64,000 bases of DNA, from contig JBHGNT010000017.1 of NCBI GenBank assembly GCA_043228905.1, positions 8,556,001 through 8,620,000 of the forward strand. The letters run 5' to 3'. Positions within the stretch are counted from its first letter, which is position 1; each line of letters starts with the position of its first letter. The notes beneath the pieces were generated by a model. That model was not told the DNA's origin. It did no database searches and saw only the letters and a list, made by a program, of their open reading frames with translations. Position numbers and translations under genes: made by a program. Below are positions 6,259-60,737 of this stretch, piece by piece. This DNA comes from Azolla caroliniana. Taxonomy: Eukaryota; Plantae; Polypodiophyta.

Positions 6259-6656
6259 CTGAGACTGACCAACTGTCACAATGGATACCTTCTCCAGGTG
6301 TGCTTTCGTACAACTCTACCTAGGAGACTGGGGCAACAATTAATGTATTAAATATGGCCTAGGGACATTTCGAGTGTGACGTAATGAATTTGTTTTTTGT
6401 TTTTTGAAACTTATTTACAATTTTTAATGTTTATTTTCTTCTTCAATTTAGTACTAAATTTTTGGCCAAAAGTAGGTACACCGTAGCATGCTTCGACCCA
6501 GAGATATGATTGCTTGACGTAAGTTTTAAAAGGAATTCAATTTGTTGGAGAGTTTTTACCCTCCGCTAATGAAACTCTCGAACAACCTAACTTTGTCAAA
6601 GGGAATTGTAAGGTTTTCGCGTGTCCATCTTAAGTAGTGTTGTAAATAACATGGTG

Positions 6657-6728
6657 TGCGCTTGCCGAGAGTTGAACTCGGGTCTATTGCTTGGAAGGCG
6701 ATTATCCTAACCGTTGGACTACAAGCGC
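6657..6728 (-). tRNA. tRNA-Gly-TCC: tRNA-Gly(TCC), near-intact array copy
   Basis: Minus strand GCGCTTGTAGTCCAACGGTTAGGATAATCGCCTTCCAAGCAATAGACCCGAGTTCAACTCTCGGCAAGCGCA; 7-bp acceptor stem, D arm, TCC anticodon, paired T stem; one C-A mismatch in the anticodon stem; closely resembles plant nuclear tRNA-Gly(TCC). Confidence 0.75.
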
Positions 6729-7342
6729 AATTTGAACCTACTTCCAAGGGAATTTTATCCCAAACAAAAAATATACAAGATAAAATTATTATCAATGTGA
6801 GTCCTTAACCTTTACCAATTATTACTTGAGCTAGCAAATAGTGAGCCTTACTTTCTTCTAACAAGTCCACAAGAACGGCTTGTTTGAGCTAATTTCATCC
6901 TGTGTTCTTACAATCTAGTTATGAAACTCGTCCAACAACGTCATATTCTCGAATAAAATAAAATAGATTTTCTTTATCCAATTGAAGTTCTGGTCTAAAG
7001 CACATAGCGTACTTTTGCGTAATGTTGAAACGTGGTCTATTGCTTTCAAGAAAAATATCCTAATTGTAGCGCTACAAGCGCAAATATATCTCATATAAGC
7101 CTGAGTCATTAATCATTACCATTTTTTATGTTGGAAAGAAAAAGGTGACCCTAACATTCTTATAAGATAGAAACGACGCTAGTTTAGAGAAACGATTATT
7201 TGACGAAAGATTTATAGGAATTCAATTTGTCGGAGAGTTTTTACACTCCGCTAATCAAACTCTCGAACGACCTGACTTTGTCAAAAGGGAATTGTATGGT
7301 TTTCACGTTTCCATCTTAAGTAGCGGTGTAAATAACATGGTG

Positions 7343-7414
7343 TGCGCTTGCCGAGAGTTGAACTCGGGTCTATTGCTTGGAAGGCGATTATCCTAACCGT
7401 TGGACTACAAGCGC
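7343..7414 (-). tRNA. tRNA-Gly-TCC: tRNA-Gly(TCC), second near-intact copy
   Basis: Same 72-nt sequence as 6657-6728. Confidence 0.75.
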
Positions 7415-8066
7415 AATTTGAACCTACTTCCAAGGGAATTTTATCCCAAACAAAAAATATACAAGATAAAATTATTGCTGAGTAATTGCATATCAATGCG
7501 AATTCTTAACCTTTACCAATTGTTACCTGAGCGAACGAATAGTGAGCTTTACTTTCTTCTAGCATACAAATGAAACAAGTACAGGAAACAACTTGTTTGA
7601 ACTACTTTGTTCCCTTGTTCTTACAACCTCGTTTTGAAACTCGTTGAGCAATGCCATATTCTCGAATTGAATCGTATAGATTTTGATTGTCCCATTGAAG
7701 TACTGCTCTAAAGCACATAGCTTGCGCTTGCGGAATGTGGAAACCTGGTCTTTTGCTTTCCAGAAAAATATCCTAACCGTAGGCCTACAGGTGGACAGCT
7801 ATCTCATATGAACCCCAGTCCTTAATCTTTACCATTTTTAATGTGAGTGAGGAAAAGGTGAACAAAAGGTGACCCTAACGTCCTTATAAGATAGAAACGA
7901 AACTAGTTGAGAGATATGATTGCTTGATGTAAGATTTAAAAGGAATTCAATTTGTTGGAGAGTTTTGACCCTCCGCTAATGAAACTCTCCACCAACGTGA
8001 CTTTGTCAAAGGGAATTGTAAAGTTTTTACTTTTCCATCTTAAGTAGTGTTGCAAATAACATGGTG

Positions 8067-8138
8067 TGCGCTTGCCGAGCGTTGAACTCGGGTCTATTGC
8101 TTGGAAGGCGATTATCCTAACCGTTGGACTACAAGCGC
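8067..8138 (-). pseudogene. tRNA-Gly(TCC) copy with a T-loop substitution
   Basis: ccgagcgttgaac instead of ccgagagttgaac; otherwise matches type A. Confidence 0.6.
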
Positions 8139-8727
8139 AATTTGAACCTATTTAAATTAAATTTCCTCAGAAAGAAATAGTATACAATATAAAATTATTG
8201 TTGAGTAATTGCATATCAATGTGAGTTCTTAACCTTTACCAAGTCTTACCTGAGCAAACGAATAGTGAGCCTTACTTTCTTTTGGCATACAAGCGAAACA
8301 AGTCTACAAAAACAGCTTGTTTAAGCTACATTGTTCCCGTGTTCTTACAACCTCGTTATGAAACTCGTCTAACAACGTCATACTCTGGGATTGAATCGTA
8401 TAGATTTTTATTGTCTAATTGAAGTACTCTTCTAAAGCACATAGCGTGCGCTTACGGAATGTCGAAGCCTGGTCAATTGCTTTCCAAAAAAATATCCTAA
8501 CTGTAGGGGTATAGGTGCACATATATCACATATGAATCTGAGCCCTTAATCTTTACTATTTTTTATCTGAGTGAGCAAAAGGTGACCGTAACGTTCATAT
8601 AAGATAGAAACGAAACTAGTTTAGAGTAACGACTGTTTGACGAAAGATTTATAGGAATGCAATTTGTTGGCGAATTTTTACCCTGTGACTTTGTGAAAGG
8701 GAATTGTAAAGTGTTCACTTTTCCATC

Positions 8728-9254
8728 TGTTAAGCCTTGGAATAACAAGACAACCAGTCACGAATAAGAACGCACCAACAAGGACGTAGTACGAAGAGGA
8801 AACGGCAAGAGGAAAGGAAAGCAAAGAGACGGTCAAGTGTGAAAGGCCCATACCCTAAACGTGAAAGCTATATAACGATCTCCTATTGATTAGAGCTAGA
8901 GCTTCCTCTCCTTCTTCTTGTAACCTTTGAGCTTAAGAGAGATTAGTGAAGTGTTTAGTTAGAGAACACTAATCTCTCTCCTTGTTGGTGGTAGACCTCT
9001 TAGCAAAGAGGGTTAATAATAGACATACTCTTCTTTTTTATTGTCTATACCTATTAATCTATTGTCTATGAGAGAGAGCTTGAGAGAGTGAGAGAGATAT
9101 TGTGCTCGATCATTTGCTAATCGTTAAGTGAGTGTGAGGCTCGGAGGTATCCAACAAACATCTCCGCCCGATTCGCCATCAAGAGGGTATACGCCGGTCC
9201 GAATCCCGCCACGACATCGAGGAGCTTATTCCATCGATACATAGATCCTTAACA
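8728..9254 (+). repeat. 5' LTR of the Athila-like element
   Basis: TGTTAAG...CTTAACA inverted termini; TATA-like ctatataa at ~8868; followed by the PBS. Confidence 0.88.
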
Positions 9255-9260
9255 TCTATT

Positions 9261-9278
9261 TGGCGTCGTTGCCAGGGA
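9261..9278 (+). promoter_or_regulatory. Primer binding site, tRNA-Asp type
   Basis: TGGCGTCGTTGCCAGGGA resembles the Athila PBS TGGCGCCGTTGCCGGGGA. Confidence 0.8.
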
Positions 9279-9364
9279 ACCGACCGACGCTTGAAGCCTA
9301 TTTTCGAGTAGTCAAAAACTTGGAGGCAAACCACTCAACGAAGGAAGAAATCGCAAGGGAACCA

Positions 9365-9945
9365 CCATTTTCTGTTTTCTCATCATTTCATAGTTTAATT
9401 AAGTCCATATTCTTTTTTTTTCATCATTTCATAGTTTATTTAAGTCCATTTTCTGTTTTTTCTTCATTTCATAGTTTAATTAAGTCCAATTTCTGTTGTT
9501 TAGCATCATTTCGTAGTTTAATTAAGTCCATTTTCTGTTTTTTCTCATCATTTCATAGTTTAATTAAGTCCATTTTCTGTTTTTTCTCATTATTCCATAG
9601 GTTAATTAAGTCAATTTTTTGTTCATTCGCTCGGTTAACATTAAACATTGTGGAGATAAGGCCGTTACAGGGCAAGCATAATCACCGCGAGTATTGCGAC
9701 TGACGATCACTCCACGGGTTACGAAACGACCGTTGGCGCCAAAAAGTTTAAACAACCTTCGACGAAGATCCAACCTTCGCCGAATATACAAACTTCGACG
9801 AATATACAATCTTCAACGAACCTTCATCCTTCGACAAAGATTCAGCCTTCGACGAATATACAATCTCGACGAATCTTCATCCTTAGACGAAGATTCAGCC
9901 TTCGACGAAGATTCAACCTTCGAATAATATTCATCCTTCGACGAA
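9365..9945. repeat. Two short tandem arrays in the 5' leader: ~42-bp units, then ~18-bp cttcgacgaa units
   Basis: ccattttctgttttttctcatcatttcatagtttaattaagt ~6 times (9365-9620); ttcgacgaa ~10 times (9757-9945). Confidence 0.85.
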
Positions 9946-9969
9946 CCTATAAAAGCTTGGCCAGAAAAC

Positions 9970-12363
9970 ATGGCCGGATCCTCATGGACAGAGATGTTCA
10001 AAACCCGACCCGCACGCCCGAAGGAGTCCACGCAAACCAACCAAACCCACGATGCCATCCCACCTAACCCAACTTAGTACCACAGAGGGTGGCTAACTCC
10101 AGGGATACTACCAAACATGAACCTCCCATCGAGCCCAGGAACTAAAGCACTTCTCAACACACCCCCACTAAAGGAGAGCCCAATGGCAGACCCACTCAGT
10201 GTAGAACGACATATACGAGACGCAACACAAGAGTTATGGGTGATAGAACAGGAAATCAACCTATGGACAATACAGCTTGCGAAAGGAGGACAACCGGAAA
10301 GCACCACTCGAGATATCGAAGCCGCTTTGGCAGAAAGGAAGGATAGATTCGCACGAGTGCAACAAAAACTTCACCTCCTAGAAACATCGTCGCACATGCA
10401 CCGCCGAAGTCAGGAGCACAACCCCGTACCATGTTCGAGCACAACGGGCGATAGCCCGAATGAAGCCCACGCACAACGACACCCGACACCACCACGCATG
10501 GGCACAATCCCTACACCTGACCAAGCTACCCCTACACCCCCAAATGCCGAACTCGCACTAGCGCTACAATACATCCAAACTCTCGTAGCATTGATGGAAA
10601 AAGAGCGAGCACCCACAGACCATCCAAGAAACCTCACAAATGACAGTGGGAAGAGTGCTTCCATTTCTAAACTAGTACCCCGTTTCCTCAGTTTCGGCGA
10701 TGCCTATGACCATGTCAAGAGGTTCAAACAGATTTGTCGCGCTTATGAACCCCTCACAGAGATCACCAAGGTAGCCACGTTTGGACTTACACTTGATGAC
10801 CAAGCCGGAATCTGGTTTCGAAACTTGAATGAAGACATCGCCGCTGATTTCGAGTATGTCATCGAGGATTTCTTGATAAACTTCGCTCGCAAAGGGAATA
10901 AATGGAACCCAATTGAACAACTTTTCGCCCTTAAGCAAGAAGCGAACGAAACGGTCAAAGACTACATACGTCGCACGAAAAGCCTACATCATCATTGTAG
11001 TCCGAGCGACAAGATGTCGGATGACAAGTTGATGAGCCGTTTCATTAATGGGTTGTTCGATCCGACACTCCAAAATTTCCTGATTGCTAGGATGTGTCGA
11101 TCATTTGCTGAAGCCTGCACGATAGTGATGACCTTTGAAGATTCGATGAGTGGGTTACAAATACCCACTCACGCACCCACGAACAACCATGAGAAATCCT
11201 CCGACTCCACCCCTGCTCTACCCACACCACCACGAACACCCCGTATAGAAAAACCCCAAGCATACGCCCAACGAGAAAATGTAAGGTGCACGGTATGTCA
11301 CAGACACCACACGGGACATGAGTGTCCCCTCCTTCATCAACGACGACCGCAATACTGTAAGTGGTGCAAAGCTTTCGTGATGCAAACGCAAGAGAACTGC
11401 TGGCAAGCCCCCACTGGAAGGTGCGGCCAAACGCCAATGGTGGAACACCCACGCTCACCTCCACCACTTAGCCGCCCACCACTACCAGCATTACTCCCTC
11501 AACAACCCCCACTACCGCGCATTGGCGCCCGCCTCACCGAACTGGAGTATACCACAGATAACCAAACCCAAGTCGGGGCGAGTACCCCCGAATATGAAGA
11601 CTCGTACTAGGAGTATGGCATTGAGGAAGAGGTGTTGTCCCATTTCGTGGATTTTGAAGGCGACCAAATATCAGTGTACGTCTTGAGAGGGGAACAACGT
11701 GGACCCCTTACAAGATACCGCAACAACAATGGTCTAAGGAGGTTAGAATTGAAATGCTTCAACTGCCAAGGCCCACATATGGTTAGTGAGTGCCCAACCA
11801 AACATGAATACTACAACCGGATGGCCCAACGACCACGACACCTCCCACTCGACACGCCCCCGCAACCACTGGCGCAAGGTCTCACCCAACAGTCGCAAGA
11901 CCTTATCGAATGGTTCCAAAGAGAAGCATCATGCCCAAGGTGCGGTAAACAACACCTAGTACCTGATTGCCCAGAAAAGAAGCAAAGGGTCGGCACAAAC
12001 TTGTTATCCATTGTACCATCCGCGATCGGTGCCAATGTCATCACACGAGCCCAATGAGTAGCGCAAAATTTAAAATACCAAGAGCAAGGTCTCCCCGTGA
12101 CCGCGCGTAAGAGACGCAAATCTAGAAAGAATAATTCCACGCAGACCTCAAAACAAGATCAAGAACCGGAGGGAGACACAGAAACATTACCTGTCAATCC
12201 GAATCAAGAACTACCGGCACCCCTAGCAGCATACCCAAACCCAATAGCTAAGAAACAAAAGGTAGAAGAATACATCAAGCTCATACAGCATGAACAGTTT
12301 GAAAAATCACTTAGCCTCCCCAGCTTAAACTTCGACCAACTAGAAGACCATTCCTACGTATAA
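9970..12363 (+). pseudogene. gag: gag of the Athila-like element, with in-frame stops and several zinc knuckles
   Basis: One frame from ATG 9970 through ORFs 10117, 11632 and 12097; gag motif LKQEANETVKDYIRR; CFNCQGPHMVSEC and CPRCGKQHLVPDC. Confidence 0.8.
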
Positions 12364-13190
12364 GCCGTCTGGTAATGGATTTCGGGAACGATATAATCTA
12401 TATGCGTAAGGACAACAAAACATTCCGCATCAAAGCATACATGCAAAAAGTGCATGAACAAGAAGGCATCCCTCTCGTAGACGATTGGTCAGAAACCATT
12501 GAGTTCGAGACCAACCTCCTAGTGTGCAACCCCACAAAGACAGTTCAATTCTTGACCAGAGGCCAACACTTTCCTCAAAGCCTCACCACTTCCAAAGAGG
12601 AGAACTCACGTGAGAGAGACGACCAATCCGTCGCTTCCGAGACGTCAGAGATGAATTGGGTGCACGCTCTCACCACAACTGACGCAATGTACCCTATAGG
12701 TACAAAGTGTTGTGAAGAGGACGGAGAAACAATCTTGTACTTCAAGGTCACCACCCTGGGACCCCGGCGAAAAGAAGTAGACGTAAAGGACAAAGAACTG
12801 GTACAACGAGTCACACGTACAGTTGACGTCACGACCACTCAGAAGGCTATGACGGAAGCGGACTTCCCAGAGCATTTCAAACTCTATGAACAAGGGAGTA
12901 GTGCAGTGTCTTGTAAGAGACCAAAACACAAACCCCAAAGCCTAGGAGAAGTCTATGATGGACCAGCAAGGGTGAAAGAAATCAACCTTGGGAAAGGGAC
13001 AGACTCTAAATTGGTGTTCATAGCCGCAGATCTCCAGCCCGATGAGGAGGCGTCCTTGATCACCCTCCTCACGGAATTTAGCGATGTGTTTGCATGGTCG
13101 TATGTCGACATGAAGGGAGTCCTAGCTGAGGTCGTCACCCATAGTATCTCCATGCGAGCCGACGCCCATCCAATCCGTCAAAGGCCACGT

Positions 13191-13820
13191 TGTCGAGGTA
13201 TTCCTCGCGGATGCGTGGAATGAGGCGGAACCTCGGGGGTCCTGTACCAAAGAGCAAGAGAGGAAGGAGAAGAGACCCTCTACGTGCGAGCGTAGATCCA
13301 CAGGGACACGGCCCTTCGACGCAAAGACGCAAGCGGGACAGCGACACAGAAAGACACGAATGTATGTATGTATTAACAAAGACAAACAACAAGAACACGA
13401 AGACAACAAAACACGAAGTCGGTTACAACCGAACAGGCCGGCGAACAGATGCCGATACCTGCTCGTAAACGCACAGAGAGGAAGGAGTAGGTTGGAGGTG
13501 TTGCCGGAAGCACTCGGGCATTCCTCAGAGCAGCGCGAGCCTCCCGAAACCTGCACAGAAGGAAGCTATGGCGTTTGCAAACCAGAGAGAGAGAGAGAAG
13601 CCTTCGCGCGCAAACCGACAGCACTTCGTCCTCGACTCTCCGCGATCCCCCCCCCCTTTCTCGTCTCCCTCCTTTTATAGGCAAGGAAGGAGCCGTTTCC
13701 CCTTTTCTTCCTACCCACTAAATCTACCTGCCTAGGATCTTCTATGGACAACATTCGAGAAGAGCCGGTTCCTACGCTCCTGTGCACCGATTCCACTTGT
13801 GGACGGTTTTATTCACGACA
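13191..13820 (-). repeat. 3' LTR of the nested gypsy
   Basis: Near-identical to 19245-19875; adjacent PPT ggtgggggcgga on the minus strand. Confidence 0.95.
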
Positions 13821-13893
13821 TCCGCCCCCACCTAACCGCGCATCCACCGGCATGCGCCAAATTGAGTTGGGACGGAGAAAACCGGTCCAGCCT

Positions 13894-16800
13894 TCATTCC
13901 CCGCCCGTCGGTTCTTCCTCGGTTTCGGATCGTTCGTCGTCGCGGTCCAGGCCAACCGGATCCGGCTCGTCGTCGTGACGCTTCTTGAACGTTTTGATCC
14001 GCTTCCCAGCTACCGGTATCGCCATTCTCGTGCCGTCGAGCTCCCCCAGATGGTACATCCCGTTGTCGTTGGCGCTTTGTACCACGTAAGGCCCGAACCA
14101 CCTTCTTGCGAATTTTCGTGTCGCTCGGTGCTGGTTGTCAAGGCTGCTGTCGTGACTAGCACCCAGTCGCCTTCCTCGATCTTCTTCGGTCGGAGCCGGT
14201 GCATTCGGTCGAACCGGGCCCTCATCCTTGCTTCCCGAAGCTTTTCCGCAGCCTGCTCCACGTCCTCCGGTCTTCGCTCGAGCTGTCGTATACGCGCCGC
14301 CAGCAGTTCCTCCCGGCTCATCTCGTCTCTCCAGTCCACGGTTGCCCACGAGGAGATCGTACGTTCCATCGGCATGACCGGCTTCTGCCCAAACATGAGT
14401 TCTGCCGGCATGAATCCGGTTACCGAACTGTGCGTAGTTTGGTCCGCCCACAACGCGTAAGGCAACAGCCGCGGCCAGTTCCCGACTTGACCTCCGCATG
14501 CCCGAACTAACGCCTTGACGATCGGTCCGTGTCCGCGCTCCACCTTTCCATTCGCCTCCGGATTGTACGCAGTGGTAAGCGAGAGCTTGACTCCTAGCCG
14601 GTCGAACAGCTCCTCGGCCTCTTCGGCGTCCAACTCCCCGCGATCAACCACTATCTTCCCGACGCACCCGTACCGGCATATCACGTCCTCAATCAGGAAC
14701 CGACATACGGCCACGGTCGTTTTGTTTTGAAGGGCTCGGCCTTCTACCTGGTTTGTCAGATCTTCCCGAGCCAGGACCAGGTACCGCATCTGTCCTACTC
14801 CCATCGGCATCGTCACCAGATCTACCATCCATTTGAAGTGGATGGTCGGCGGGTACGTAGGGTGAAGCTCGTCCCGATGTCGGACTACGGAGTGCATCTG
14901 ACAGCTCTCGCAAGTTGTCACGAACAGATGCACGTCCCGGTACAGTCCCGGCCACCAGTACTTCCCCTTTATCTTCTCGAACGTGGCCCACGTTCCACGG
15001 TGTCCAGCCCAAGGGTTGTCGTGGTAGGCCGTCAGCAGCTCCTCCTATTCTTCCTTCATCGCCACCACCCGGAGCGGGACGTCGTTCCTCTTCTTCAGGT
15101 GCTTCCATAAGTATCCGTCCCGGAGAAAGAATCGGTAAGCTTTCTTCCGGACCCGGTTGGCCTCGTCCTTCATCCATGATGCATCCGGCGTCATTGTCCT
15201 CAAAAATCCACCGATCTGTAGCCACTCGTCGTCGTACTTGCTCTCGTCGAAGCCGTTAAGTGCCGGAGTGCTCGCCCCGTCGGTCGTCACGTACGCCGCC
15301 TCGAAGAAGTCCACGCCGATTTCTTCGTCCTCCGAAACCATGCCGCCCTCGTCATCAAACCTCGCCCTCGAAAGCATGTCGGCCATGGCGTTGTCTTTTC
15401 CGGAAATGTGTCGTATTTCCGGGTCCAGGGACTTGATGTACGTTATCCACCTGAGCATCACCAGGTCCGGTGTCGCGCATCCGGAAACTATGCCGAGAAT
15501 TGGAAGCAATCCGTCTCGATAATCACTTCTGTCCCGATCAGGTAGTCTTTGTCGGCCTTTACTGCCGAAACGATACCCCAGAGTTCGCGTTTAACCTGGG
15601 CGTACCCTCGCTGTCGCTCACTGAGGACCTTCACGCCGAATCGGATCGGGAACCGAATGCCGTCCTCGTCTTCTTGGTTGACGACCCATCCGATCCCGGT
15701 CGAACTCGTATCTACCGTTATGTATACCGGGGTACCCTTCCCGTAGACAGCCTTCCGGAGCGCCGGTGCTGTCGCAAGAGCTTCCTTCAGCTTCCAGACC
15801 GACTCCGTGTGCTCGTCTCGCCATTCGAATTTTCGCCCTTTCTTCAGCAACCCATATAGCGGCTCCGCAACGTGGGCGTAATGCGCATGCCCCCAGGAAC
15901 CTCCGAACTTCCGTAACCGAGCTACAGTCGGTCTTCATCGCGGAGATGGCTTCTACCTTTGCCGGAGACGGCTTCCGGCCATATGGCCCACATAGGTGTC
16001 CGACTACCAGGATTTCCGATTGCCCGAAGGCCGATTTCTCCCCGGAGAAGGTGAGCCTCGCATCCTCTAGCCTTTGTAGCACCTTCTCGCAGTCATCGAT
16101 GTGTTTCGCCACGAATCGCCGTCATCCGTCTGGCCCGACTGTCTCGTCCTTCTCCTCCACCGGGCACCCCTTGATCGGGATGTCGTCTAGAAACGGCATG
16201 GTGATGTTCGGGATGCAATCCCTCAGTACCTTGTTCATTGCATTCACCATGTGGGCTACCGAGTTGGTCCCTCCTTGTGGCAGGGTACACATTCGCACTA
16301 GGCCGAGGGGGGTTCGCATCGTCGTAATGTCTCTGCTCTCCACGGCTAGCTGGAACTGGTTGTACCCTGAGTACAGATCACCGACCGAGTAAATCGACCT
16401 TCCGGCGAAGGCCTCTGCGAACTCGTCTATGGTCGGTCCGATTCCTGCGTTCCGAATGGTCACTCTGTTGACCGGCTGCAGGTCTTGAATGAAGCGCAAT
16501 GTTCCGTTTTTCTTCGGTACGGTAAACCATTGGTTCGAGTATGGGGCACTCGACGGTTCAAGAATGCCCATATCTACTTTCTGCCTCAATAGCTCCATCA
16601 ACTTCTGGATGTGAGCTCTCGGTACCGGAATCGGCTTGAGATTCCACGGCACATGCGGTACCGTGAATATCACCATCGGCTCCACGATCGTCGGGTCTAC
16701 GCACCCGATCTCTTCCGGTGAGAATGCGAAGGCTTTCCCGTGCCTTCCGAGCATCCTCCGAAACCGGTCTTCCTCCACTGGCAGTAGGAACCCGGCCCCA

Positions 16801-17300
16801 CCGATTTTGAGCTCCCGGAGCGTCCCGTCAGTGAAGGTGTGTCCTATGCAGGCCGGATCTCGTAAACTGGGGTCCGACGCAACCCCTTTGATCCGGGACT
16901 CGCTGCCCTCCGGTAAGGGTGCCGCGACTGGCCTTACCTTCCGGTCCACAGTCTTGTACTTTGTGCTAACTCGGGCCGTCCGATCCGACCCGAGCCCCCG
17001 ACTGAAGTTCGCATTAAGGTATCGTCCGGTCTTCATTAAGGTCTTCTCCGGCTACCTCCCCCAGCATTCCCAAGGTGTCGTCGAAGGAGACCGCCTCCAC
17101 GGCTCCGCTGATTTCCTCGTCCGGGCCGAGAACTCCGCACGCTCGAAGTCGCACTTCCGCCCTTGTCTTTTCTCGGCCAACGATGCCGATTATCATACAC
17201 CCTCCGTTGTTGGAGAAGCAGAATTTCCTACTTATCGTACAGTCGTGGGGTCCTTTCCGAGTGTCCGGGCTGTCTCGGCCCCACGCCTTGGCAGCCCTCT
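13894..17300 (-). pseudogene. pol: pol ORF2 (RT, RNase H, integrase) of the nested gypsy, frameshifted
   Basis: VPKKNGTLRFIQDLQ; LPQG; FLDD; ITVDTSSTGIG; YAQVKRELWG; YNPEANGKVERGH; WFGPY. Confidence 0.9.
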
Positions 17301-19228: not shown

Positions 19229-19241
19229 GTCGGGTTCACCA
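19224..19241 (-). promoter_or_regulatory. Primer binding site complementary to the tRNA-Trp 3' end
   Basis: Plus strand TTCACGTCGGGTTCACCA matches, from memory, the 3' end of plant tRNA-Trp plus CCA; 3 nt from the LTR. Confidence 0.85.
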
Positions 19242-19244
19242 AGA

Positions 19245-22900: not shown

Positions 22901-23012
22901 CCAATCAGGAGATGGACTGAAGTCCGAGGACCTCGTCGCAACGACACTCGAATCACATCCCGCTTTCCTCGCTGATCCCCAAAGCGTGGAGTTACCCAAA
23001 CAAGCAACACAC

Positions 23013-24814: not shown

Positions 24815-25020
24815 GTTCGAGGGGCCCAACCCCTCGAACTACCCGTTGTTCGAGGAGTCCAACCCCTCGAACCACACCGAGTCCAACTCCTCGAACCACG
24901 CGTTGTTCGAGGAGCCCAACCCCTCGAACGACCCGTTGTTTAAGGAGTCCAACCCCTTGAACCACACCCAGTCCAACTCCTCGAACCACACGTTCGAGGA
25001 GTCCAACTCCTCGAACACGT
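24815..25020. repeat. Short tandem repeats (gaggagtccaacccctcgaac) in the 3' region of the element
   Basis: Visible repeats; translate as repeated EESNPSNH. Confidence 0.8.
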
Positions 25021-25150
25021 AACTCTTAGTTGTTGAGTTACTACGTAGTTAGGACTCCACGTCCCGCTCCGTCACAGGAAATCTATTGAAACTACCCGAA
25101 CTTGTTGATTCGTCACCACATTTAACTATACTAATAATTTTCCTCGCAAG

Positions 25151-28007
25151 TTGCAAATGATGACGTCTCCCCAATTCATCAAACTCCTCCACGCATACTA
25201 CCCCGACGTAGGGTGCGGTTCCTTAGTCATTCCAGCGGTGTTCAACAATACCCGATGTATTTACCGGGTCCCCACGGCCGCCACGCAGCTCAAGTACCTC
25301 GAACTCGACGTGTTCGCCACCCTCTCACGACTTGGCCTCAAGTTCTTCCTTGGGATCGGGCCGTGGGGCGTCCTACCCAAACTGGTCAACCGTTTCCTCA
25401 TCGGGTACAACCCCGATACGGGCCACGTCGATATGTAGCCTTTCGCAGACTCCCCCCTCGTTGCATTCTAGTTCACCGCGGCCGACGTTTGTGCTACGCT
25501 GCATTTACCACTCGAGGGCGCCCCCTTCTGCACCATGAGGACCCCCGGGGTTGTCCCTGGCATCATCCCTGCCGCCTACGCCGAATATTCTGGACGTGAT
25601 GGTTGGCGTTACACCGAAATCCCTCTCCATCTCCACGCCTGTTGTAGCGCAATTGCCCAAATCGGCGACACTGCATCTACCGATGCCACCGCTCCTATCA
25701 CCGGCGAGTACCTCAAGTGGGCACATGATCCGCAACCGGTCCAGTGGGTTCACGAGCCTGTCTGCCGGGTCCGAGAATGGCACACACGGCCCAAATCGAC
25801 TGTCAATTTCGCGTGGTTCCTCACCCGCTACTTGTGCGCAAAGTTCAGCATCGGACCCCCCGCCCCTCCCTTCATACGCTGCCAAGAACGCTTCCGCAAG
25901 ATCGTTGTTCCAGGCCAACTCGAGCGCCTTCGCCTCCCCAAATGCGACTTTTTATGACAGGTACACCAAGGCGAACAGGCACGGCCACCGGTGCACAAAC
26001 AACCCCCGATCACCCACGTGTCAGCCGAAGCTAACCTCGACACACCTGAGGATATCACAAATCGTGTCAAGGAATTCCAGACACACAAGTTCACCCCCAC
26101 CGAAATCCAAGCCTTGTCCACCACCTTCCACTATGTGTCACATCAGAACACAATCACGACTCCGCGTTCCCGCAGCTGCACCACTAAGTCAATCTTGCGC
26201 GACCAACGGAACCCACCAACCCCGCCTCAACCCACCTCGCCAACCCCTCTACCCCACGAATCCTCTCCCCCCGCCCCGGCCACAACTACCCCGCCTTTCT
26301 CGTCCACCACCACCGACGACACCCCGCAACCCCGACCCCATAAACTCGCCCGCCACACCGCTCCCGACACTGAAACCCTCGACCGGCCCTCGCCCGCAAC
26401 CCCGGCAGTTCCCCTCCAACCCACCATCGCCCCCGCCCAGATGGACACCCCGCCACCGCCACCGCCACCCCCACTCCCCACTCCCGACCTCTGTGCCCTG
26501 CTCGACCTCACTCACTGCAGTTACTACTCACCCTACCCTCTCCCTCGCCGTCCCCCCCAAACCCTTAACCGACATGGTGACCGACCTCCTCAAGATGACT
26601 GCCGTCGTGAACCGTCGCCTACTTCAAGTTCATGCACAGGCCCAACAGACCGCCATCGACCAACACGAGACCTCTACACGGAACAAGATCTTGGCCGCCG
26701 AGGTACGGAGCGCCCTCCATACCAATGTGTGCCAAGCGGCCGCCCACGACCTCCTCAAGCAAGAACTCCTGACAACGCAAACCCGACACCAACAACTCGC
26801 TGACGAATTCCAACAAGCTCGAACAACCTCGCACCACGACCAGGAACGCGCAACGCAAACACATGTTGAACTTTCGCCCGAGTACGTCCGCCTCACCACC
26901 CAACACTAACTGACCGAGGCCCGCCTCGCAGCCGAGACGGCTGATCTCTCCGAACGATCTGAGGCCCTGGTCGCCGCCATGGCCACCACTCACCAACTCA
27001 TGAGCGAGATCACCACCCTCAAGGCTGAACGAGACGCCATGGTCCACCAAGTTGAAGTCGCCAATGAACGGAACCGATGTCTCCTCATCAAACACCGCCG
27101 CCAATGCGCCGACCTCGAAAAGGACATCCTCCAACTCCACACGTCCAAAGCCGCCCTTGAACACACCCTCACCCCCGACATGACGGACCCCTCCACCGTT
27201 CAGACCCCTCTCCTTCCCCCAACTGGCTCTCCGATTATGATCCATGCACTCTCTGTGTACGTGACCTCGACCTCCCTGCTCTCCGAACTTTTCACTGCAC
27301 CACGCACACCACGCACCCTCCTCATCCAAGCAACGTGCGTCCTTTGGTCGTTAGCCGCCACGCATCGCGTATTCTTTGACGACACCACACCCCCAGACCG
27401 GCAGACCTTCATCCGAGTACTCCCCGAAGACAACCACGCCCTTGCCCTCTTCATGTTGTACCAGGAAGCCACCGAAGAACCTGCTCCCCCATCCAACGAC
27501 CTCTTCCCCCAACACCTCCCCATTTTGTTCCTCGAAGGTATGGCCTACCTTCACACCACCCTCACCCCCGACTTAGACATCTCCGACCTGATCTATTTCA
27601 CCTACCCTTCTGATGTCACGATGCAAGTCACCGAAGACCAGCTAGCTCACCTCTTCGCAACACTGGTGCACTTACACCAAATCACCGACACCCTCACCTG
27701 CACCCTGTTGGAAAACACAACGACCTCCGTACCCCCTTTCGGTTTCCTTTGGCTAATACGCGCTTGGCAAACCGCCTAGGATGTCGGGGTTCGTACTCAC
27801 ATATTCAGCATCGAATATGGCACGTTCAATTGGCCCACCGACCTCGAGGCCGACGACATACCACAATTAGCCCTATACCTCGACATCTCTCGCGAGTATC
27901 AACTCATGACGTTCGATGAGGCTCGTGCTCATGCCCTCCTACCCCCGCACCCCCCTTCTCCTCCCCCGGCGATTGACCTAGAGTGGGACACCGACTCACT
28001 TGATTAA
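25151..28007 (+). pseudogene. Extra ~950-codon ORF in the env-like position: Athila ORF/plant transposon protein-like N-terminus, Pro-rich linker, coiled coil
   Basis: ORFs 25151, 25535, 25991 share one frame; a shift near 26510 leads to the frame of 26979, which reads past TAG 27779 to TAA 28007; motif LVNRF...FTAADVCATLHLPLEG...VNFAWFL. Confidence 0.6.
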
Positions 28008-28009
28008 CA

Positions 28010-31000
28010 CCATCTTAAGTAGTGGCGATTATCCTAACTGTTGGACTACAAGTGGGATGTGAACCTACTTCTATGGGAATTTTATCCCAAACAAAAAATA
28101 TACAAGATAAAATTATTATTGAGTACTTGCATATCAATGTGAGTCCTTAACCTTTACCAATTGTTCACTGAGTGAACGAATAGTGAGCTTTACTTTCTTC
28201 TAGCATACAAATGAACTACTTTGTTCTCGTGTTCTTACAATCTCGTTATGAAACATGTCCAACAACGTCATATTCTCGAATTGAATCGTATAGATTTTGA
28301 TTGTCCAATTGAAGTACTGCTCTAAAGCACATAGCGTGCGCTTGCGGAATGTCGAAACCTAGTCTATTTCTTTCCAGAAAAAATATCCTAATTGTAGGCC
28401 TACAGGTGGACAGATATCTCATATGAACCCGAGCCCTTAATCTTTACCATTTTTAATGTGAGTGAGGAAAAGGTGAACAAAAGGTGACCCTAACGTCCTT
28501 ATAAGATAGAAACGAAACTAGTTTAGAGATACGATTGTTTGACGTAAGATTTATCGGAATGCAATTTGTTGGAGAAGTTTTACCCTCCGCTAATGAAAGT
28601 CTCGACCAACATGACTTTGTCAAAGGGAATTGTAAAGTTTTCACTTTTCCACCTTCGGTAGTGGTGTAAATGACATAGTGTGCGCTTGTTGAGAGTTGAA
28701 CTTGGGTCTATTGCTTGGAAGGCATTTATCCTAACCGTTGGACTACAAGCGCAATGTGAACCTACTTCCAAGGGAATTTTATCCCAAACAAAAAATATAC
28801 AAGTTGCATATCAATGTGAGTCCTTAACCTTTACCAATTATTACTTGAGCTAGCAAATAGTGAGCCTTACTTTCTTCTAACAAGTCCACAAGAACGGCTT
28901 GTTTAGGCTAATTTGTTCCCGTGTTCTTACAATCTAGTTATGAAACTCGTCCAACAACGTCATATTCTCGAATAAAATTAAATAGATTTTCTTTATCCAA
29001 TTGAAGTACTGCTTTCAAGCACATAGCGTGTGCTTGCGAAATGTTGAAATGTGGTCTATTGCTTCCAAGAAAAATATCCTAATTGTAGGTCTAGCTCATA
29101 TCAGCCTGAGTCCTTAATCCTTACCATTTTTTATGTGAGCGAGCAAAAGGTGCCCCTAACATTCTTATAAGATAGAAACGAGGCTAGTTTAGAGAAATGA
29201 TTGTTTGACGAAAGATTTATAGGAATTCAATTTGTTGGAGAGTTTTTACACTCCACTAATGAAACTCTCGAACAACATGACTTTGTCAAAGGGAATTGTA
29301 AAGTTTTCACTTTTCTATCTTAGTAGTGGTGTAGAAAACATGGGGTGTGCTTGCTGAGAGTTGAACTCGGGTTTATTGCTGGGAAGGCGATTATCCTAAC
29401 CGTTTGACTACATGCGCAATTTTAACCTCTTCAAAAAGAATTTTATCACAAAGAAACAATATACAAGATAAAATTATTGTTGAGTAGTTGCATATCAATG
29501 TGACTCCTTAACCTTTACCAATTGTTACCTCAGCGACCGAATAGTGAGCCTTACTTTCTTTTAGCATACGAATGAAAAAGTCCACAAAACAACTTGTTTG
29601 AACTACTTTGTTCCCGTGTTCTTACAATCTCGTTATGTAACTCGTCCAACAACGTCATATTCTCGAATTGAATCGTATAGATTTTGATTGTCCAATTGAA
29701 GTACTGCTCTAAAGCACATAGCGTGCATTTGCGGAATGTCGAAGCCTGGTCTATTGCTTTCCAGAAGAATATCCTAACGTTCTTATAAGATAGAAATGAA
29801 ACTAATTTAGAGAAACGATTGTTTGACGAAAGATTTATAGGAATGCAATTTGTTGGAGAATTTTACCCTCCACTAATAAAAGTCTCGAACAACATGACTT
29901 TGTCAAATGGAATTGTAAAGTTTTCACTTTCCATCTTAAGTAGTGGTGATTATCCTAACTGTTTGAGTACAAGCTCAATGTGAACCTACTTCCAAGGGAA
30001 TTTTATCTCAAACAAAAAATATACAAGATAAAATTATTATTGAGTACTTGCATATCTATGTGACTCCTTAACCTTTACCAATTATTACCTGAGCGAACGA
30101 ATAGTGAGCCATACTTTCTTCTAGCATACAATTGAAACAAGTCCACAAAACTAGCTTGTTTGAACTACTTTGTTCCCGTGTTCTTACAATCTCGTTATGA
30201 AACGTGTTCTTACAATCCCGTGTTCTTACAACGTCATATTCTCGAATTGAATCGTATAGATTTTGATTCTCCAATTGAAGTACTGCTCTAAAGCACATAG
30301 CGTGTGTTTGCGGAATGTCGAAGCCTGGTTTATTGCTTTCCAAAAAAATATCCCAACTGTAGGGCTACACGTGCACAGATATCTCATATGAACCGGAGTC
30401 CTTAATCTTTACCATTTTTTATGTGAGTGAGTAAAAGGTGAGCAAAAGGTGACCCTAACGTTCTTATAAAATAGAAACGAAACTAGTTGAGCGATACGAC
30501 TATTTGACGTAATTTTCATAGGAATGCAATTTGTTGGAGAATTTTTACCCTCCGCTAATGACAGTCTCGACCAATGTGACTTTGTCAAAGGGATTGTAAA
30601 GTTTTCACTTTAACATTGTTGGTAGTGGTGTAAATAACATGGTGTGCGCTTGCCGAGAGTTGAACTCGGGTCTATTGCTTGGAAGGCGATTATCCTAACT
30701 GTTGGACTACAAGCACAATGTGAACCTACTTCCAAGGGAATTTTATCCCAGACAAAAAATATACAAGATAAAATTATTATTGAGTAGTTGCATATCAATG
30801 TGAGTTCTTAAGCTTTACCAATTATTACTTGAGCTAACAATTAGTGAGCCTTACTTTCTTCTAACAAGTCCAAAAGAACGGCTTGTTTGAGCTAATTTGT
30901 TCCCGTGTTCTTATAATCTAGTTATGAAACTCGTCCAGGAACATCATATTCTCGAATAAAATCGAATAGATTTTCTTTATCCAATTGAAGTACTGCACTA

Positions 31001-34000
31001 AAGCACATAGCGTACGCTTGCGGAATGTTGAAGCGTGGTTTATTGGTTTCAAGAAAAATATCCTAATTGTAGGGCTGCAAGCGCATATATATCTCATATC
31101 AACCTGAGTCCTTAATCATTACCATTTTTTATGTGAGCGAGCAAAAGGTGACCCTAACATTCTTATAAGATAGAAAAGACGCTAGTTTAGAGAAACGATT
31201 GTTTGACGAAAGATTTATAGGAATTCCATTATTTGACGAAAGATTTATAGAGAAACGATGCTCGAACAACCTGACTTTGTCAAAGGGAATTGTAAGGTTT
31301 TCGTGTTTCCATCTTAAGTAGTGTTGTAAATAACATGGTGTGCGCTTGTCGAGAGTTGAACTCGGCTCTATTGCTTCGATGGTGATTATTCTAACCGTTG
31401 GACTATAAGCGCCATTTGAACCTACTTCGAACGGAATTTTGTCACAAAGAAATAGTATAAAAGATAAAATTATTGTTAAGTAGTTGCATCTCAATTTGAG
31501 TCCTTAACCTTTACCAATTGTTACCGAAGCAAACGAATAGTGAATCTTACTTTCCTCTAGCATAGAAATGAAACAAGTTCACAAAAACAGCTTGTTTGAG
31601 CTAAATATCATATTAATTCAATTTGTCCTCGTGTTCTTACAATCTAGTTATTCAAGTCATCCTGCAATATCATATTCTTGAATCGAATCGAATAGGTTTT
31701 GTTTATCCAACTGAAGTACCGCTCTAAAGCACATAGCGTGCGCTTGCGCATTGTTGAAATCTGGTCTATTGCTTTCAAGAAAAATATCCTAACTGTAGGG
31801 CTACAAGCGCACATATATCTCATATCAACCTAAGTCCTTAATCATTACCATTTTTTATGTTAGCGAGCAAAAGATGACCCTAACAGTCTTATTAGACAAA
31901 AGCGAAGCTAGTTTAGAGAAACGATTGTTTGACGAAAGATTTATAGGAGTTCCATTGTTTGACAAAAGATTTATATAGAAATGATGCTCGAACAACCTGA
32001 CTTTGTCAAAGGGAATTGTAAGGTTTTCGTGTTTCCATCCTAAGTAGTGTTGTAAATAACATGGTGTGCGCTTGCCGAGAGTTGAACTCGGGCCTTTTGC
32101 TTCGAAGGTGATTATCCTAACCGTTGGACTACAAGCGCAATTTGAATGTACTTCGAACGGAATTTTGTCACAAAGAAATAGTATAAAAGATAAAATTATT
32201 GTTGAGTAGTTGCATCTCAATTTGAGTCCTTAACGTTTACCAATTGTTACCTAAGTGAATGAATAGTGAGCCTTACTTTCTTCTAGCATACAAATGAAAC
32301 AAGTTCACAAAAACAGCTTGTTTGAGCAAAATATCATATTAATTCAATTTGTCCCCATTTTCTTACAATCTAGTTATTCAAGTCATCCAGCAATGTCATA
32401 TTCTCGAATCGAATCGAATAGGTTTTGTTTATCCAATTGAAGTACCGCTCTAAAACACATAGCGTGCGCTTGCGCAATGTTGAAATGTGGTCTATTCCTT
32501 TCAAGAAAAATATCCTAATTGTAGGGCTACAAGCGCACATATATCTCATATCAGCCTAAGTCCTTAATCATTACCATTTTTTATGTGAGGGAGCCAAAGG
32601 TGACCCTAACAATCTTATTAGATAGAAACAAAGCTAGTTTAGAGAAACGAAAGATTAATAGGAATTCAATTTGTTGGAGAGTTTTTACACTCCGCTAATG
32701 AAACTCTCGAACATCCTGACTTTGTCAAAGGGAATTGTAAGGTTTTTGTGTTTCCATCTTAAGTAGTGGTGTAAAAAAGATGGTGTGTGCTTATTGAGAG
32801 TTGAACTCGGGTTTATTGCTTGGAAGACGATTATCCTAACCGTTGGACTACAAGCACAATTTGAACCTCTTCTAATAGAATTTTACCAATTATTACTGGA
32901 GCTAACAAATAGTGAGCCTTACTTTCTTCTAAGAAGTCCACAAGAACAACTTGTTTGAGCTAATTTGTTCCTGTGTTCTTACAATCCAATTATGAAACTC
33001 ATCCAACAACGTCATATTCTCGAATAAAATCAAATAGATTTTCTTTATCCCATTGAAGTACTACTCTAAAGCACATAGCGTACCCTTGCGTAATGTTGAA
33101 ACGTGGTCTATTGCTTTCAAGAGAATTATCCTAATTTTAGGGCTACAAGCGCACATATATCTCATATTAGCCTAAGTCCTTAATCATTACCATTTTTAAT
33201 GTGAGCGAGCAAGAGGTGACCCTAACATTCTTATAAGATAGAAACGAAGCTAGTTTAGAGAAACGATTGTTTGACGAAAGATTTATAGGAATTCAATTTG
33301 TTGGAGAGTTTTTACAATCCGCTAATGAAACTCTTGAACAACCTGACTTTGTTAAAGGGAATTGTAAGGTTTTCGGTTTTCCATCTTAAGTAGTGGTGTA
33401 AATAACATGGTGTGCGCTTGCCGAGAGTTGAACTCGGGTCTATTGCTTGGATGGTGATTATCCTAACCGTTTGACTACATGCGCAATTTGAACATACTTG
33501 CAAGGGTATTTTATCAAAAGCAAACAATATACAAGATAAAATTATTGTTGAGTAGTTGCATATCAATGTGATTCGTTATCCTTTACCAATTGTTACCTGA
33601 GCGAACGAATAGTGAGCTTTACTTTCTTTTAGTATACAAATGAAACAAGTCCACAAAAATAGCTTGTTTGAGCTAAACATCAGGTTAATTCCATTTGTTC
33701 CCGTACGTATAATCTAGTTATGAAACTCGTCCAACAATGTCATATTCTCGAATCGAATCGAATAGATCTCTTTTTTCCAATTAAAGTATTGCTCTAAAGC
33801 ACATCTCGTATGCTTGCGGAATGTTGGAATGTGGTCTATTGCTTCGAAGAAAAATATCCTAATTGTAGGGCTATAGGCGCATATATATCTCATATCAACT
33901 TGAGTCTTTAATCTTTATCATTTTTTATTTGACCGAGCAAAAGGTGACCCTAACGTTCTTATAAGATAGAAACGACACTAGTTTAGAGAAACGATTTTTG

Positions 34001-35171
34001 ATGAAAGATCTATAGGAATTCAATTTGTTGGAGAGTTTTTACAATCCGCTAATGAAAGCCTTGAATAACAATGTTTTCGGTTTTCCATCTTAAGTAGTGG
34101 TGTAAATAACATGTTGTGCACTTGCCGAGAGTTGAACTCGAGTATCTTACTTGGAAGGCATTTATCCTAACCGTTGAACTACAAGCACAATGTGAACCTA
34201 TTCCAAGGGAATTTTATCCCAAACAAAAAATATCCAAGATAAAATTATTATTCCCGTGTTCTTACAATCTAGTTATGAAACTCGTCCAACAACGTCCTAT
34301 TCTCAAATAAAATCGAATAGATTTTCTTTATCCAATTGAAGTACTGCTCTAAAGCACATAGCGTACGGTTACGGAATGTTGTAACTTGGTCTATTGCTTT
34401 CAAGAAAAATATCCTAATTGTAGGGCTACAGGCGCACACATATCTCATATCAACCTGAGTCCTTAATCTTTACCATATTTATGTGAGCGAGCAAATGGTG
34501 ACCATAACATTCTTATAAGATAAAAACAAAACTAATTTAGAGAAACCGTTTTTTGACCAAATATTTATAGGAATTCAATTTGTTGGAGAGTTTTTAGACT
34601 CTCCATGCTAATGAAACTCATTGAACAACGCGGCATTGTCGAAGGGAATTGAATATATTTCTCTTTTCGATCGTAAGTAGTGGTTGAAATAACATGGTGT
34701 GCGCTTGCCGAGAGTTGAACTCGGGTCTATTCCTTAGAAGGCAATTTTCCTAACTGTTGGATTACAAGCGCAATTTGAACCTACTTCCAATGAAATTTTC
34801 TCAGAAACAAAAAAATACAAGATAAAATTATTATTGAGTAGTTGCATATCAATGTGAGTCCTTAACCTTCACCAATTGTTACCTGAGCGGACGAATAGTG
34901 AGCCTTACTTTCTTCTACCATACAAATGAAATAAGTCCACAAAAACAACTTGTTTGAGCTAAACATCATATTAATTCAATTTGTTTCCGTGTTGTGATAA
35001 TCTAGTTATGAAACTCGTCCAGCAATGTTATATTCTCGAATCGAATCGAATAAATTTTTTTTATCCAATCGAAGTACTGCTCTAAAGCACATAGCGTGCG
35101 CTTGCGGAATGTTGAAACGTGGTCTATTGCTTTCAAGAAAAATATCCTAATTGTAGAGCTATAGGCGCACA
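28010..35171 (-). repeat. tRNA-Gly(TCC)-derived tandem array, right part
   Basis: Type A copies at ~28681, 29347, 30645, 31341, 32067, 32786, 33413, 34116, 34700, partials at ~28020 and ~29945; type B copies between them. Confidence 0.92.

Positions 35172-60695: not shown

Positions 60696-60696
<1 letters not shown>

Positions 60697-60737
<41 letters not shown>
60697..60737. repeat. (CAT)n microsatellite
   Basis: ~13 CAT units. Confidence 0.9.

What the first reader, a model, noticed from the sequence alone, without database searches (positions are those of the whole stretch)
6495..35171. ~9.4-kb tandem array of about 28 tRNA-Gly(TCC)-derived units, alternating intact-like and degenerate copies
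Each ~350-bp monomer carries a tRNA-Gly-like sequence on the minus strand. Type A keeps the cloverleaf and A/B boxes, with paired stems (GCGCTTG/CAAGCGC, CCGAG/CTCGG) that differ from the plant consensus I recall in a compensated way. Type B keeps the acceptor stem but has lost the anticodon stem. Tandem tRNA clusters are known (Arabidopsis Pro and Tyr/Ser, Entamoeba), but I do not know of a Gly satellite like this in a seed-free plant. It could be an amplified tRNA cluster, a Pol III-anchored satellite or a source of tRNA fragments.
Basis: partly seen in the sequence, partly recalled or inferred. Interest (0 to 1): 0.8.

Follow-up and report, generated by a model that had tools for sequence, protein, structure and literature searches.

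The report
Gene-plus-pseudogene glycine tRNA arrays
This is a real head-to-tail run of 14 repeats, each holding one glycine tRNA gene and one dead copy, split by a jumping gene and mostly decaying; it is likely an outlying piece of a family of roughly a thousand such genes in a non-flowering plant, which would help explain how a fern came to carry thousands of tRNA genes.

Summary
Confirmed with corrections. There are 28 tRNA-like cores in 9.39 kb, but the true repeat is a ~700-bp dimer (gene A + pseudogene B, 14 units), split by a 19.3-kb nested gypsy insertion with a 5-bp target duplication. B evolves like spacer. A is a compensated tRNA-Gly(UCC) variant, yet none of 12 full-length copies is fully paired. 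Nine carry a C29·A41 mismatch that is at most 0.5-7% of the matching depth in five DNA runs. The nine right-hand copies diverge at spacer rate. The family is far larger than this locus. A sister array (L124/L125) keeps A at 71/72 while spacers differ by 23%. Runs of two other organisms match only the tRNA, at about 10^3 times unique-contig depth (a rough ratio, not a count), and one has its own tandem array (L094). Best reading: a decaying outpost of a lineage-wide tandem tDNA family under birth-and-death evolution; expression is untested. Tandem tDNA clusters are known, but I found no Gly cluster or gene+pseudogene unit in plants. If the host is Azolla-like (not shown), this offers a mechanism for its 7,848 tRNA genes. 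No earlier scan note on this was found.

The parts
6495..8727 (-). Left arm of the array: dimer units 1-3 and the downstream flank of unit 4
28015..35171 (-). Right arm of the array: rest of unit 4 to unit 14
6657..6728 (-). A1 tRNA-Gly(TCC), one mismatch (C29.A41), Rfam 65 bits
7343..7414 (-). A2, identical to A1 (inside a 150-column identical tract shared by units 1 and 2)
8067..8138 (-). A3, C29.A41 plus one T-loop change, 59.8 bits
28023..28053 (-). A4, truncated (5' 31 nt only; same deletion as A7)
28681..28752 (-). A5, four broken pairs
29346..29417 (-). A6, five broken pairs
29944..29974 (-). A7, truncated (same deletion as A4)
30645..30716 (-). A8, C29.A41 plus two other changes, 58.5 bits
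31341..31412 (-). A9, five broken pairs, anticodon mutated to TCG, below Rfam cut-off
32067..32138 (-). A10, three broken anticodon-stem pairs, anticodon TCG
32786..32857 (-). A11, three broken pairs
33413..33484 (-). A12, four broken pairs
34117..34188 (-). A13, two broken pairs
34700..34771 (-). A14, two broken pairs, anticodon TCT; this edge unit is the closest to the L124 sister array
7010..7081 (-). B1 pseudogene
7723..7794 (-). B2 pseudogene
8447..8518 (-). B3 pseudogene
28337..28409 (-). B4 pseudogene (1-nt insertion)
29030..29093 (-). B5 pseudogene, 5' end deleted
29725..29779 (-). B6 pseudogene, 5' end and upstream flank deleted
30303..30374 (-). B7 pseudogene
31013..31084 (-). B8 pseudogene
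31739..31810 (-). B9 pseudogene (closest to A, 14 differences from the L124 gene)
32465..32536 (-). B10 pseudogene
33081..33152 (-). B11 pseudogene
33809..33880 (-). B12 pseudogene
34364..34435 (-). B13 pseudogene
35097..35168 (-). B14 pseudogene; its upstream flank is replaced by unrelated DNA (array edge)
8723..8727 (+). Left target-site duplication CCATC
28010..28014 (+). Right target-site duplication CCATC
8728..28009 (+). Outer Ty3/gypsy-type retrotransposon (gag, RT, RNase H, integrase in that order, frames broken); one LTR-like segment at the 5' end, no second copy in the window
13191..19875 (-). Nested Ty3/gypsy-type element, LTRs 13191-13820 and 19245-19875 (623 identities, 7 mismatches, 1 gap), 4-bp target duplication

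Best explanation
The locus is a 14-unit tandem array of a glycine tRNA gene paired with a dead copy, split by a retrotransposon and mostly decaying, and it is likely an outlying piece of a very large tandem gene family whose intact members elsewhere are predicted to make tRNA-Gly(UCC). Shown: the dimer unit, the split, neutral divergence of B, spacer-rate divergence of the nine right-hand A copies, and strong conservation of A between sister arrays and between organisms while spacers are replaced. Inferred steps: (1) a ~350-bp tRNA monomer was tandemly duplicated as DNA, one copy decayed into B, and the A+B pair became the amplified unit; (2) unequal crossing-over and gene conversion multiplied and homogenised the units into several subfamilies, on the order of 10^3 tRNA copies per genome; (3) purifying selection on expressed A copies kept the cloverleaf and fixed compensated pairs, while B rides along because it lies inside the unit; (4) this array, isolated among methylated retrotransposons, fixed a local C29.A41 defect and is dying, its three left-hand copies being the least damaged. 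Pol III transcription of intact copies, with termination at a distant T run and trimming by RNase P and RNase Z, is predicted from established tRNA biology and was not tested.
For: Dimer and shared 5' flanks. Ancient monomer: the A and B halves align over the tRNA and beyond, and the two spacers score 36 against a maximum of 26 in 300 shuffles. Block duplication: the same truncated A occurs twice, units 4/7 and 5/8 are 91% alike, units 9/10 93%. Constraint on A but not B: minimum mutations 37 against 55.4 expected from context-matched spacer columns (P=0.0002), B 50 against 51.7 (P=0.42). Sister array in an independent metagenome record (L124/L125, 712-bp period): A differs at 1 of 72 from the window majority, spacer at 125 of 538 (Fisher P=6e-7), and its gene is fully paired. 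Runs X7 and X8 (organisms C, D) cover the tRNA but no array spacer at 80% likeness. Two loose ends of X8 occur in L094, a tandem array of the same isoacceptor (spacing 299 and 369) whose spacers do not align to the window's. The A51-T61 pair occurs in 3 of 123 fetched plant genes, all three in the array records L094 and L124. Scale: summed depth at position 6700 is 63,716 (X1), 9,750 (X3), 22,776 (X7), 18,912 (X8) and 9,406 (X2), against 18-20 for long contigs in X7 and 9-10 in X8; single contigs alone reach ~48x (X7), ~54x (X8) and ~15x (X2) those levels. Local decay: 93-99.5% of that depth has the paired base at position 29, which 9 of 12 window copies lack; right-hand A copies differ at 50 of 648 cells against 412 of 4,604 in spacers (P=0.34); CG transitions 14% against 3-5% at CHH.
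Against: Expression of any copy is untested. The depth table is, by the tool's own warning, a sum over overlapping contigs and no copy number, so 10^3 is an order-of-magnitude reading. X3 (organism B) shares contigs of the same length and difference count with X1 and is not independent. Tandem arrangement is shown for the window, L124/L125 and L094, and only by one joint for X8; it is not shown for organism C. Conservation of A could come partly from gene conversion rather than selection: the left three copies (1 of 216 cells changed against 148 of 1,666) include a 150-column identical tract, and alignment cells are not independent, so the P values are optimistic. Only 2 of 12 full A copies have a T4 run within 25 nt, and L124 and L094 have none that close, against 105 of 120 other plant genes. 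The 90 bases of the L124/L125 record where B should lie were not seen. The host species is not established.
Confidence: 0.68

Rival explanations
1. The whole family is a silent, selfish or neutral satellite that happens to contain a tRNA; A stays conserved through homogenisation and conversion from a few working genes, not because array copies are used.
For: Most window copies are damaged; methylation-type decay; no nearby terminator; Arabidopsis clusters are silent and methylated (PMC7544208, abstract and one results section); PlantRNA lists over 10,000 tRNA-like or pseudogene sequences in Azolla (10.1101/2021.12.21.473619).
Against: Homogenisation should carry A, B and spacer alike, yet only A is conserved between arrays and organisms. 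The array-type gene carries its own compensated pairs. In X2 no tRNA position other than 29 is listed with 10% or more of another letter (40 of 48 rows shown), so the array type dominates and few donors of another type are available.
Confidence: 0.17
2. This very array is still in use: the three left-hand A copies are transcribed, perhaps only in some cells like the Arabidopsis SYY cluster, and the C29.A41 mismatch is tolerated.
For: A1-A3 differ from the array majority at 1 of 216 cells against 8.9% in their spacers, score 60-65 bits, and keep A and B boxes, a CAA at -6 and an AT-rich box near -30. SYY reactivation is reported (PMC12308677, search listing and passages in PMC13437025).
Against: All three carry a mismatch absent from 123 of 123 fetched plant genes and from at least 98.7% of depth in X1 and X2. 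Their uniformity fits one recent conversion tract. They sit between repeats and a retrotransposon LTR.
Confidence: 0.1
3. The repeat is a structural element (TFIIIC-anchored boundary or centromere-like satellite) or a source of tRNA fragments, with B as a working part.
For: Head-to-tail arrangement in heterochromatin-like surroundings; A keeps its internal promoter boxes.
Against: B shows no constraint and has lost its B box. A is conserved over the whole cloverleaf with compensated stems, which a promoter-only role would not need.
Confidence: 0.05

Closest known systems
Tandem tDNA clusters of flowering plants (Arabidopsis Pro and Ser-Tyr-Tyr, maize Ile and Ala, barley Gln; PMC7544208, PMC13437025, PMC11700998, PMC12652284)
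   Same: DNA-level tandem duplication of a multi-gene block with shared flanks, cluster-specific isodecoder alleles, signs of methylation.
   Different: Isotype is Gly(UCC): no plant Gly homocluster among 117 of about 121 rows seen of Table S3 (5 genes/5 kb sheet) in PMC13437025, and no fern row there. The unit holds a fixed pseudogene. The family is roughly 10^3 copies by depth against 5-76 per published cluster, and appears to be the dominant form of the isoacceptor rather than a minor extra set.
Entamoeba tRNA gene arrays (PMC2652664, abstract)
   Same: Tandem arrays kept across related species while the spacer sequences are completely replaced.
   Different: No short tandem repeats in the spacers here (one search lists none inside the array). 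Units are 80-93% alike rather than uniform. One isotype is shown; whether most tRNA genes are arrayed is unknown.
Amphibian 5S rDNA with a gene and a pseudogene in each repeat (newt, PMC2111863, abstract passage; Xenopus oocyte 5S DNA, recalled)
   Same: A Pol III gene plus a degenerate copy carried together in the amplified unit.
   Different: tRNA instead of 5S RNA; the pseudogene is full length and lies ~270 bp away rather than directly downstream.
Extreme tRNA gene count of Azolla filiculoides (7,848 nuclear genes, over 10,000 tRNA-like sequences; PMC13437025 Table S1, PMC13578239, PlantRNA 2.0 preprint)
   Same: Same order of amplification, with many pseudogenes, in a seed-free plant.
   Different: The papers ascribe it to genome duplication and repeat content and describe no tandem arrays in the passages read. 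Whether the window comes from this genus was not established.

Membership tests
Functional cytosolic tRNA-Gly(UCC) gene (type A copies) | Cloverleaf with all four stems paired | tested here: not met
   0 of 12 full-length window copies; A1-A3 and A8 have a single mismatch; the L124 sister copy meets it
Functional cytosolic tRNA-Gly(UCC) gene (type A copies) | TCC anticodon and tRNA covariance-model score above cut-off | tested here: met
   TCC in 9 of 12 full copies; 11 of 14 A copies above 29 bits; 6 ARAGORN calls
Functional cytosolic tRNA-Gly(UCC) gene (type A copies) | Pol III signals: A and B boxes, upstream CAA and AT-rich box, T4 or longer within 25 nt downstream | tested here: inconclusive
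   Boxes present; CAA at -6 in 8 of 12; T4 within 25 nt in 2 of 12 against 105 of 120 other plant genes. PMC13437025 reports this signal is least frequent in non-angiosperm land plants.
Functional cytosolic tRNA-Gly(UCC) gene (type A copies) | Transcribed, processed and charged | not testable with these tools
   No small-RNA or tRNA-seq data could be laid
Functional tRNA gene (type B copies) | Cloverleaf, B box, constraint | tested here: not met
   0 of 14 hit Rfam; T stem broken in 11 of 11 audited; divergence equal to spacer
Plant tandem tDNA cluster (5 or more genes within 5 kb, PMC13437025) | Five or more tRNA genes within 5 kb | tested here: inconclusive
   Met by Rfam cut-off (six copies in 28681-33484), not met by ARAGORN (three per arm); tRNAscan-SE was not available
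Plant tandem tDNA cluster (5 or more genes within 5 kb, PMC13437025) | Repeated block with shared upstream and downstream flanks | tested here: met
   14 aligned units, 80-93% identical
Plant tandem tDNA cluster (5 or more genes within 5 kb, PMC13437025) | Methylated and silenced | tested here: inconclusive
   Only the mutational footprint was seen: CG transitions 14%, CHG 10-14%, CHH 3-5%
tRNA-derived SINE | Copy begins at the tRNA 5' end, with unshared upstream flanks, a tail and target duplications | tested here: not met
   Upstream flanks are co-duplicated, units are head to tail, no tail or per-copy duplication is visible; related organisms share only the tRNA
Entamoeba-type tRNA arrays | Short tandem repeats between genes | tested here: not met
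   Tandem Repeats Finder lists none inside either arm
Entamoeba-type tRNA arrays | Nearly all tRNA genes of the genome in arrays | not testable with these tools
   No whole genome is held for this window
Centromeric satellite | CENH3 binding, megabase arrays | not testable with these tools
   No genome or ChIP data; the local array is 9.4 kb

The most novel reading that the evidence does not exclude
In this seed-free plant lineage the tRNA gene set has been rebuilt, Entamoeba-style, into large tandem arrays of single isoacceptors that evolve like rDNA (gene kept, spacer replaced between species, pseudogenes built into the unit). These arrays supply most of the tRNA and are the real cause of the record 7,848 tRNA genes reported for Azolla, overturning the rule that land-plant tRNA genes are dispersed.
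Probability: 0.3. Interest if true: 0.78.

Novelty: new variant of a known kind. Interest (0 to 1): 0.52.

Why it matters
Recent surveys state that land-plant tRNA genes are mostly dispersed, with clusters typically under 5% of loci and limited to a few isotypes (PMC13437025). [quoted passage not shown] This locus and its relatives show a concrete route to such numbers: tandem arrays with birth and death of copies, kept across related organisms. The array-type gene has diagnostic bases (C4-G68, A51-U61, and the local C29), so whether arrayed copies are expressed can be tested directly with existing tRNA-seq methods. The window's own copies are mostly dead, which limits the interest of the locus itself.

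Tried and rejected
No whole genome is held for this window, so no genome-wide map of the unit could be made. Expression: no RNA holder listed; the two runs guessed to be RNA laid 0 contigs, which is no evidence either way. The array-type T-arm pattern has 0 matches in genome contigs and viral contigs, so a prokaryotic or viral source was dropped. The PPR search did not name the genus (best 120 of 6,220 hits listed, identities 29-45%). My first stem audit used a dot-bracket string one base too long and its pairing counts are void; it was redone. SINE origin was rejected (shared upstream flanks). Organellar tRNA needing C-to-U repair was rejected: the gene is within 6-8 bases of the commonest plant genes fetched, which sit in dispersed loci with T-run terminators. 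A role for B was rejected for lack of constraint. Literature searches that found no description of a fern or Gly tandem tDNA array. The Supplementary Discussion of PMC6786969 (Azolla and Salvinia genomes) was too large to read and may discuss tRNA gene numbers or arrays. PMC9477723 and PMC9858662 gave nothing relevant. Scan notes: none on tRNA arrays in this genome.
Full report
Observation. ARAGORN finds 6 tRNA-Gly(TCC) genes on the minus strand. Rfam finds 12 tRNA matches, 11 above the gathering score, all type A. nhmmer with the first copy finds 28 cores inside the array and one chance-level hit outside it. They alternate A and B. The array occupies 6495-8727 and 28015-35171, 9.39 kb of AT-rich DNA (GC 0.35-0.38).

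The split. The left arm ends in CCATC followed by TGTTAA, and the right arm starts after TTAACA and a second CCATC. Between them lie gag, RT, RNase H and integrase frames in gypsy order on the plus strand, interrupted by a second element on the minus strand. The nested element has LTRs at 13191-13820 and 19245-19875 with 623 identities, 7 mismatches and 1 gap. So a 19,282-bp nested insertion landed inside unit 4.

The unit. The period is ~700 bp: 14 units align end to end at 80-93% identity. The A half and B half are 66-76% alike over the tRNA and about 90 bp downstream, and their spacers still align above 300 of 300 shuffles. An old ~350-bp monomer therefore gave rise to the dimer (inferred). 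The same truncated A occurs in units 4 and 7, and units 4/7, 5/8 and 9/10 are among the closest pairs. That is the footprint of block duplication by unequal crossing-over (inferred).

Type A against other plants. The window's gene differs from the commonest types at 6-8 positions. Position 29 is different: T pairs with A41 in 123 of 123 genes, whereas 9 of 12 full-length window copies have C. No window copy has all four stems paired. Only 2 of 12 have a T4 run within 25 nt, against 105 of 120 other plant genes; PMC13437025 notes this signal is least frequent in non-angiosperm land plants (passage).

Type B. No B copy hits Rfam. In 11 of 11 audited copies the T stem is broken and the B box altered; the acceptor stem is whole in 3 of 11. 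B carries 50 minimum mutations against 51.7 expected from context-matched spacer (P=0.42), A carries 37 against 55.4 (P=0.0002). B is a pseudogene fixed in the unit.

Decay at this locus. The A signal comes largely from the three left-hand copies (1 of 216 cells changed against 148 of 1,666), which include a 150-column identical tract, probably one conversion event. The nine right-hand copies (50 of 648) match their spacers (412 of 4,604; P=0.34). Transitions at CG are 14% in both A and spacer, against 3-5% at CHH, the usual mark of methylated DNA (interpretation from established knowledge). Cells share ancestry, so these P values are optimistic.

The family beyond the window. L124 and L125, two parts of one metagenome record, hold the same repeat with a 712-bp period. 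Its A gene is fully paired and differs from the window majority at 1 of 72 positions, while the spacer differs at 125 of 538. The unseen gap has exactly the 90 bases that B and its flanks would need. Loose ends in run X2 (organism A) match L124 and L125 flanks with 1 of 18 and 0 of 16 mismatches (2 and 3 against the window's array), so this subfamily probably exists in the host or a close relative. Laying contigs on unit 1 at 80% likeness, X1 and X3 cover all 30 bins, whereas X7 and X8 (organisms C and D) cover the tRNA and a short flank repeat but no array spacer. Two X8 loose ends occur in L094, a tandem Gly(TCC) array with spacings of 299 and 369 bases, one damaged copy, the same A51-T61 pair and spacers unrelated to the window's. 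At position 29 the paired base makes up 99.3% (X1), 99.6% (X3), 99.5% (X7), 92.9% (X8) and 98.7% (X2) of depth, so C29 is a local defect.

Scale. Summed depth at that position is 22,776 in X7 against 18-20 for its long contigs, and 18,912 in X8 against 9-10. In X1 and X2 the non-majority remainder (455 of 63,716; 123 of 9,406), if it is the window's nine C29 copies, implies about 1,300 and 700 copies. The tool warns that summed depth is no copy number, and overlapping contigs inflate it. Single contigs give floors of about 48, 54 and 15 identical copies. I read this as hundreds to low thousands.

Host. The named best hits of the neighbouring PPR protein are non-flowering land plants at 29-45% identity, and an earlier scan note calls the genome 'likely from a fern' (unchecked). 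The genus is not established. The only land plant with tRNA gene numbers of this order in the tables I read is Azolla filiculoides, with 7,848 nuclear genes and over 10,000 tRNA-like sequences. I put the chance that the host is that genus at about 0.7; this is partly circular, since it leans on the copy number.

Mechanism. Shown: dimer, split, neutral B, conserved A across arrays and organisms, local decay. Inferred: amplification by unequal crossing-over, purifying selection on expressed copies elsewhere, methylation of this outpost. Untested: transcription of any copy. Rivals are a wholly silent satellite (0.17), use of the three left-hand copies (0.10) and a structural or tRNA-fragment role (0.05).

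Comparison with what is known. Tandem tDNA clusters are described in flowering plants and are silent and methylated in Arabidopsis (PMC7544208, abstract and section 15; PMC11700998 and PMC12652284, passages). Table S3 of PMC13437025 shows no plant Gly homocluster and no fern in 117 of about 121 rows seen (sections 6 and 10 read). Entamoeba arrays share the keep-the-gene, replace-the-spacer pattern (PMC2652664, abstract). Newt 5S DNA shares the gene-plus-pseudogene unit (PMC2111863, abstract passage). PMC13578239 (passages, section 6 and part of the appendix) leaves the fern count without a shown mechanism. PMC6786969 was searched by passages; its Supplementary Discussion could not be read and may bear on novelty. 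The PlantRNA preprint was read whole.

Verdict. A real feature and a new variant of a known kind. It works like an rDNA-style tandem multigene family for one tRNA. The copies in this window are mostly pseudogenes. Interest 0.52, rising to about 0.78 if most of the lineage's tRNA genes prove to be arrayed and expressed.

Noticed in passing
window 8728-28009: The outer gypsy element has TG...CA ends and a 5-bp target duplication but only one LTR-like segment (8728 to about 9253, followed by a primer-binding-site-like motif); no second copy is in the window. The 3' LTR may have been lost by a deletion between the TTAA words at its two ends (inference).
   Followed up: partly
window 24100-27990: The outer element carries about 4 kb of extra DNA after integrase, with several long open frames that match no Pfam family above its curated cut-off.
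   Followed up: no
window 6440-6494: A short repeat at the left edge of the array with two small palindromes; single in the window but at very high depth in X1 (bin mean 54,000) and also present in X3, X7 and X8. Possibly a MITE-like family.
   Followed up: partly
run X2 contigs on window 6714-6910 and 6903-7061: Contigs at depth 266-294 (about 15 times the rarer contigs) differ by only 5 letters from unit 1, so a homogeneous sister array close to unit 1 exists elsewhere or is collapsed in this assembly.
   Followed up: no
run X12 contig on window 6663-6720: One depth-2 contig, labelled organism A, looks like a conventional tRNA-Gly(TCC) gene with a T4 run about 13 nt downstream; it may be a dispersed canonical gene or contamination.
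   Followed up: no
L094:1-742: A different tandem Gly(TCC) array (three copies, spacings 299 and 369, one with a damaged B box) whose two spacers are related to each other but not to the window's.
   Followed up: yes
L006 and L031, 1501-1675: Two tRNA-Gly(TCC) genes 152 bases apart in another plant.
   Followed up: no
window 2178-3310: A 52-bp AT-rich minisatellite with a ~201-bp higher-order period.
   Followed up: no
window 60375-62645: Open frame of 756 aa with PPR repeats; relatives are mostly from non-flowering land plants.
   Followed up: partly
window 314-1339 and 4125-5198: Two open frames of 341 and 357 aa on the minus strand with no Pfam match.
   Followed up: no
window 35172-55400: Dense gypsy- and copia-type fragments right of the array, including a copia-type element with 320-bp LTRs at 41330-41649 and 46654-46973 (98% alike).
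   Followed up: no
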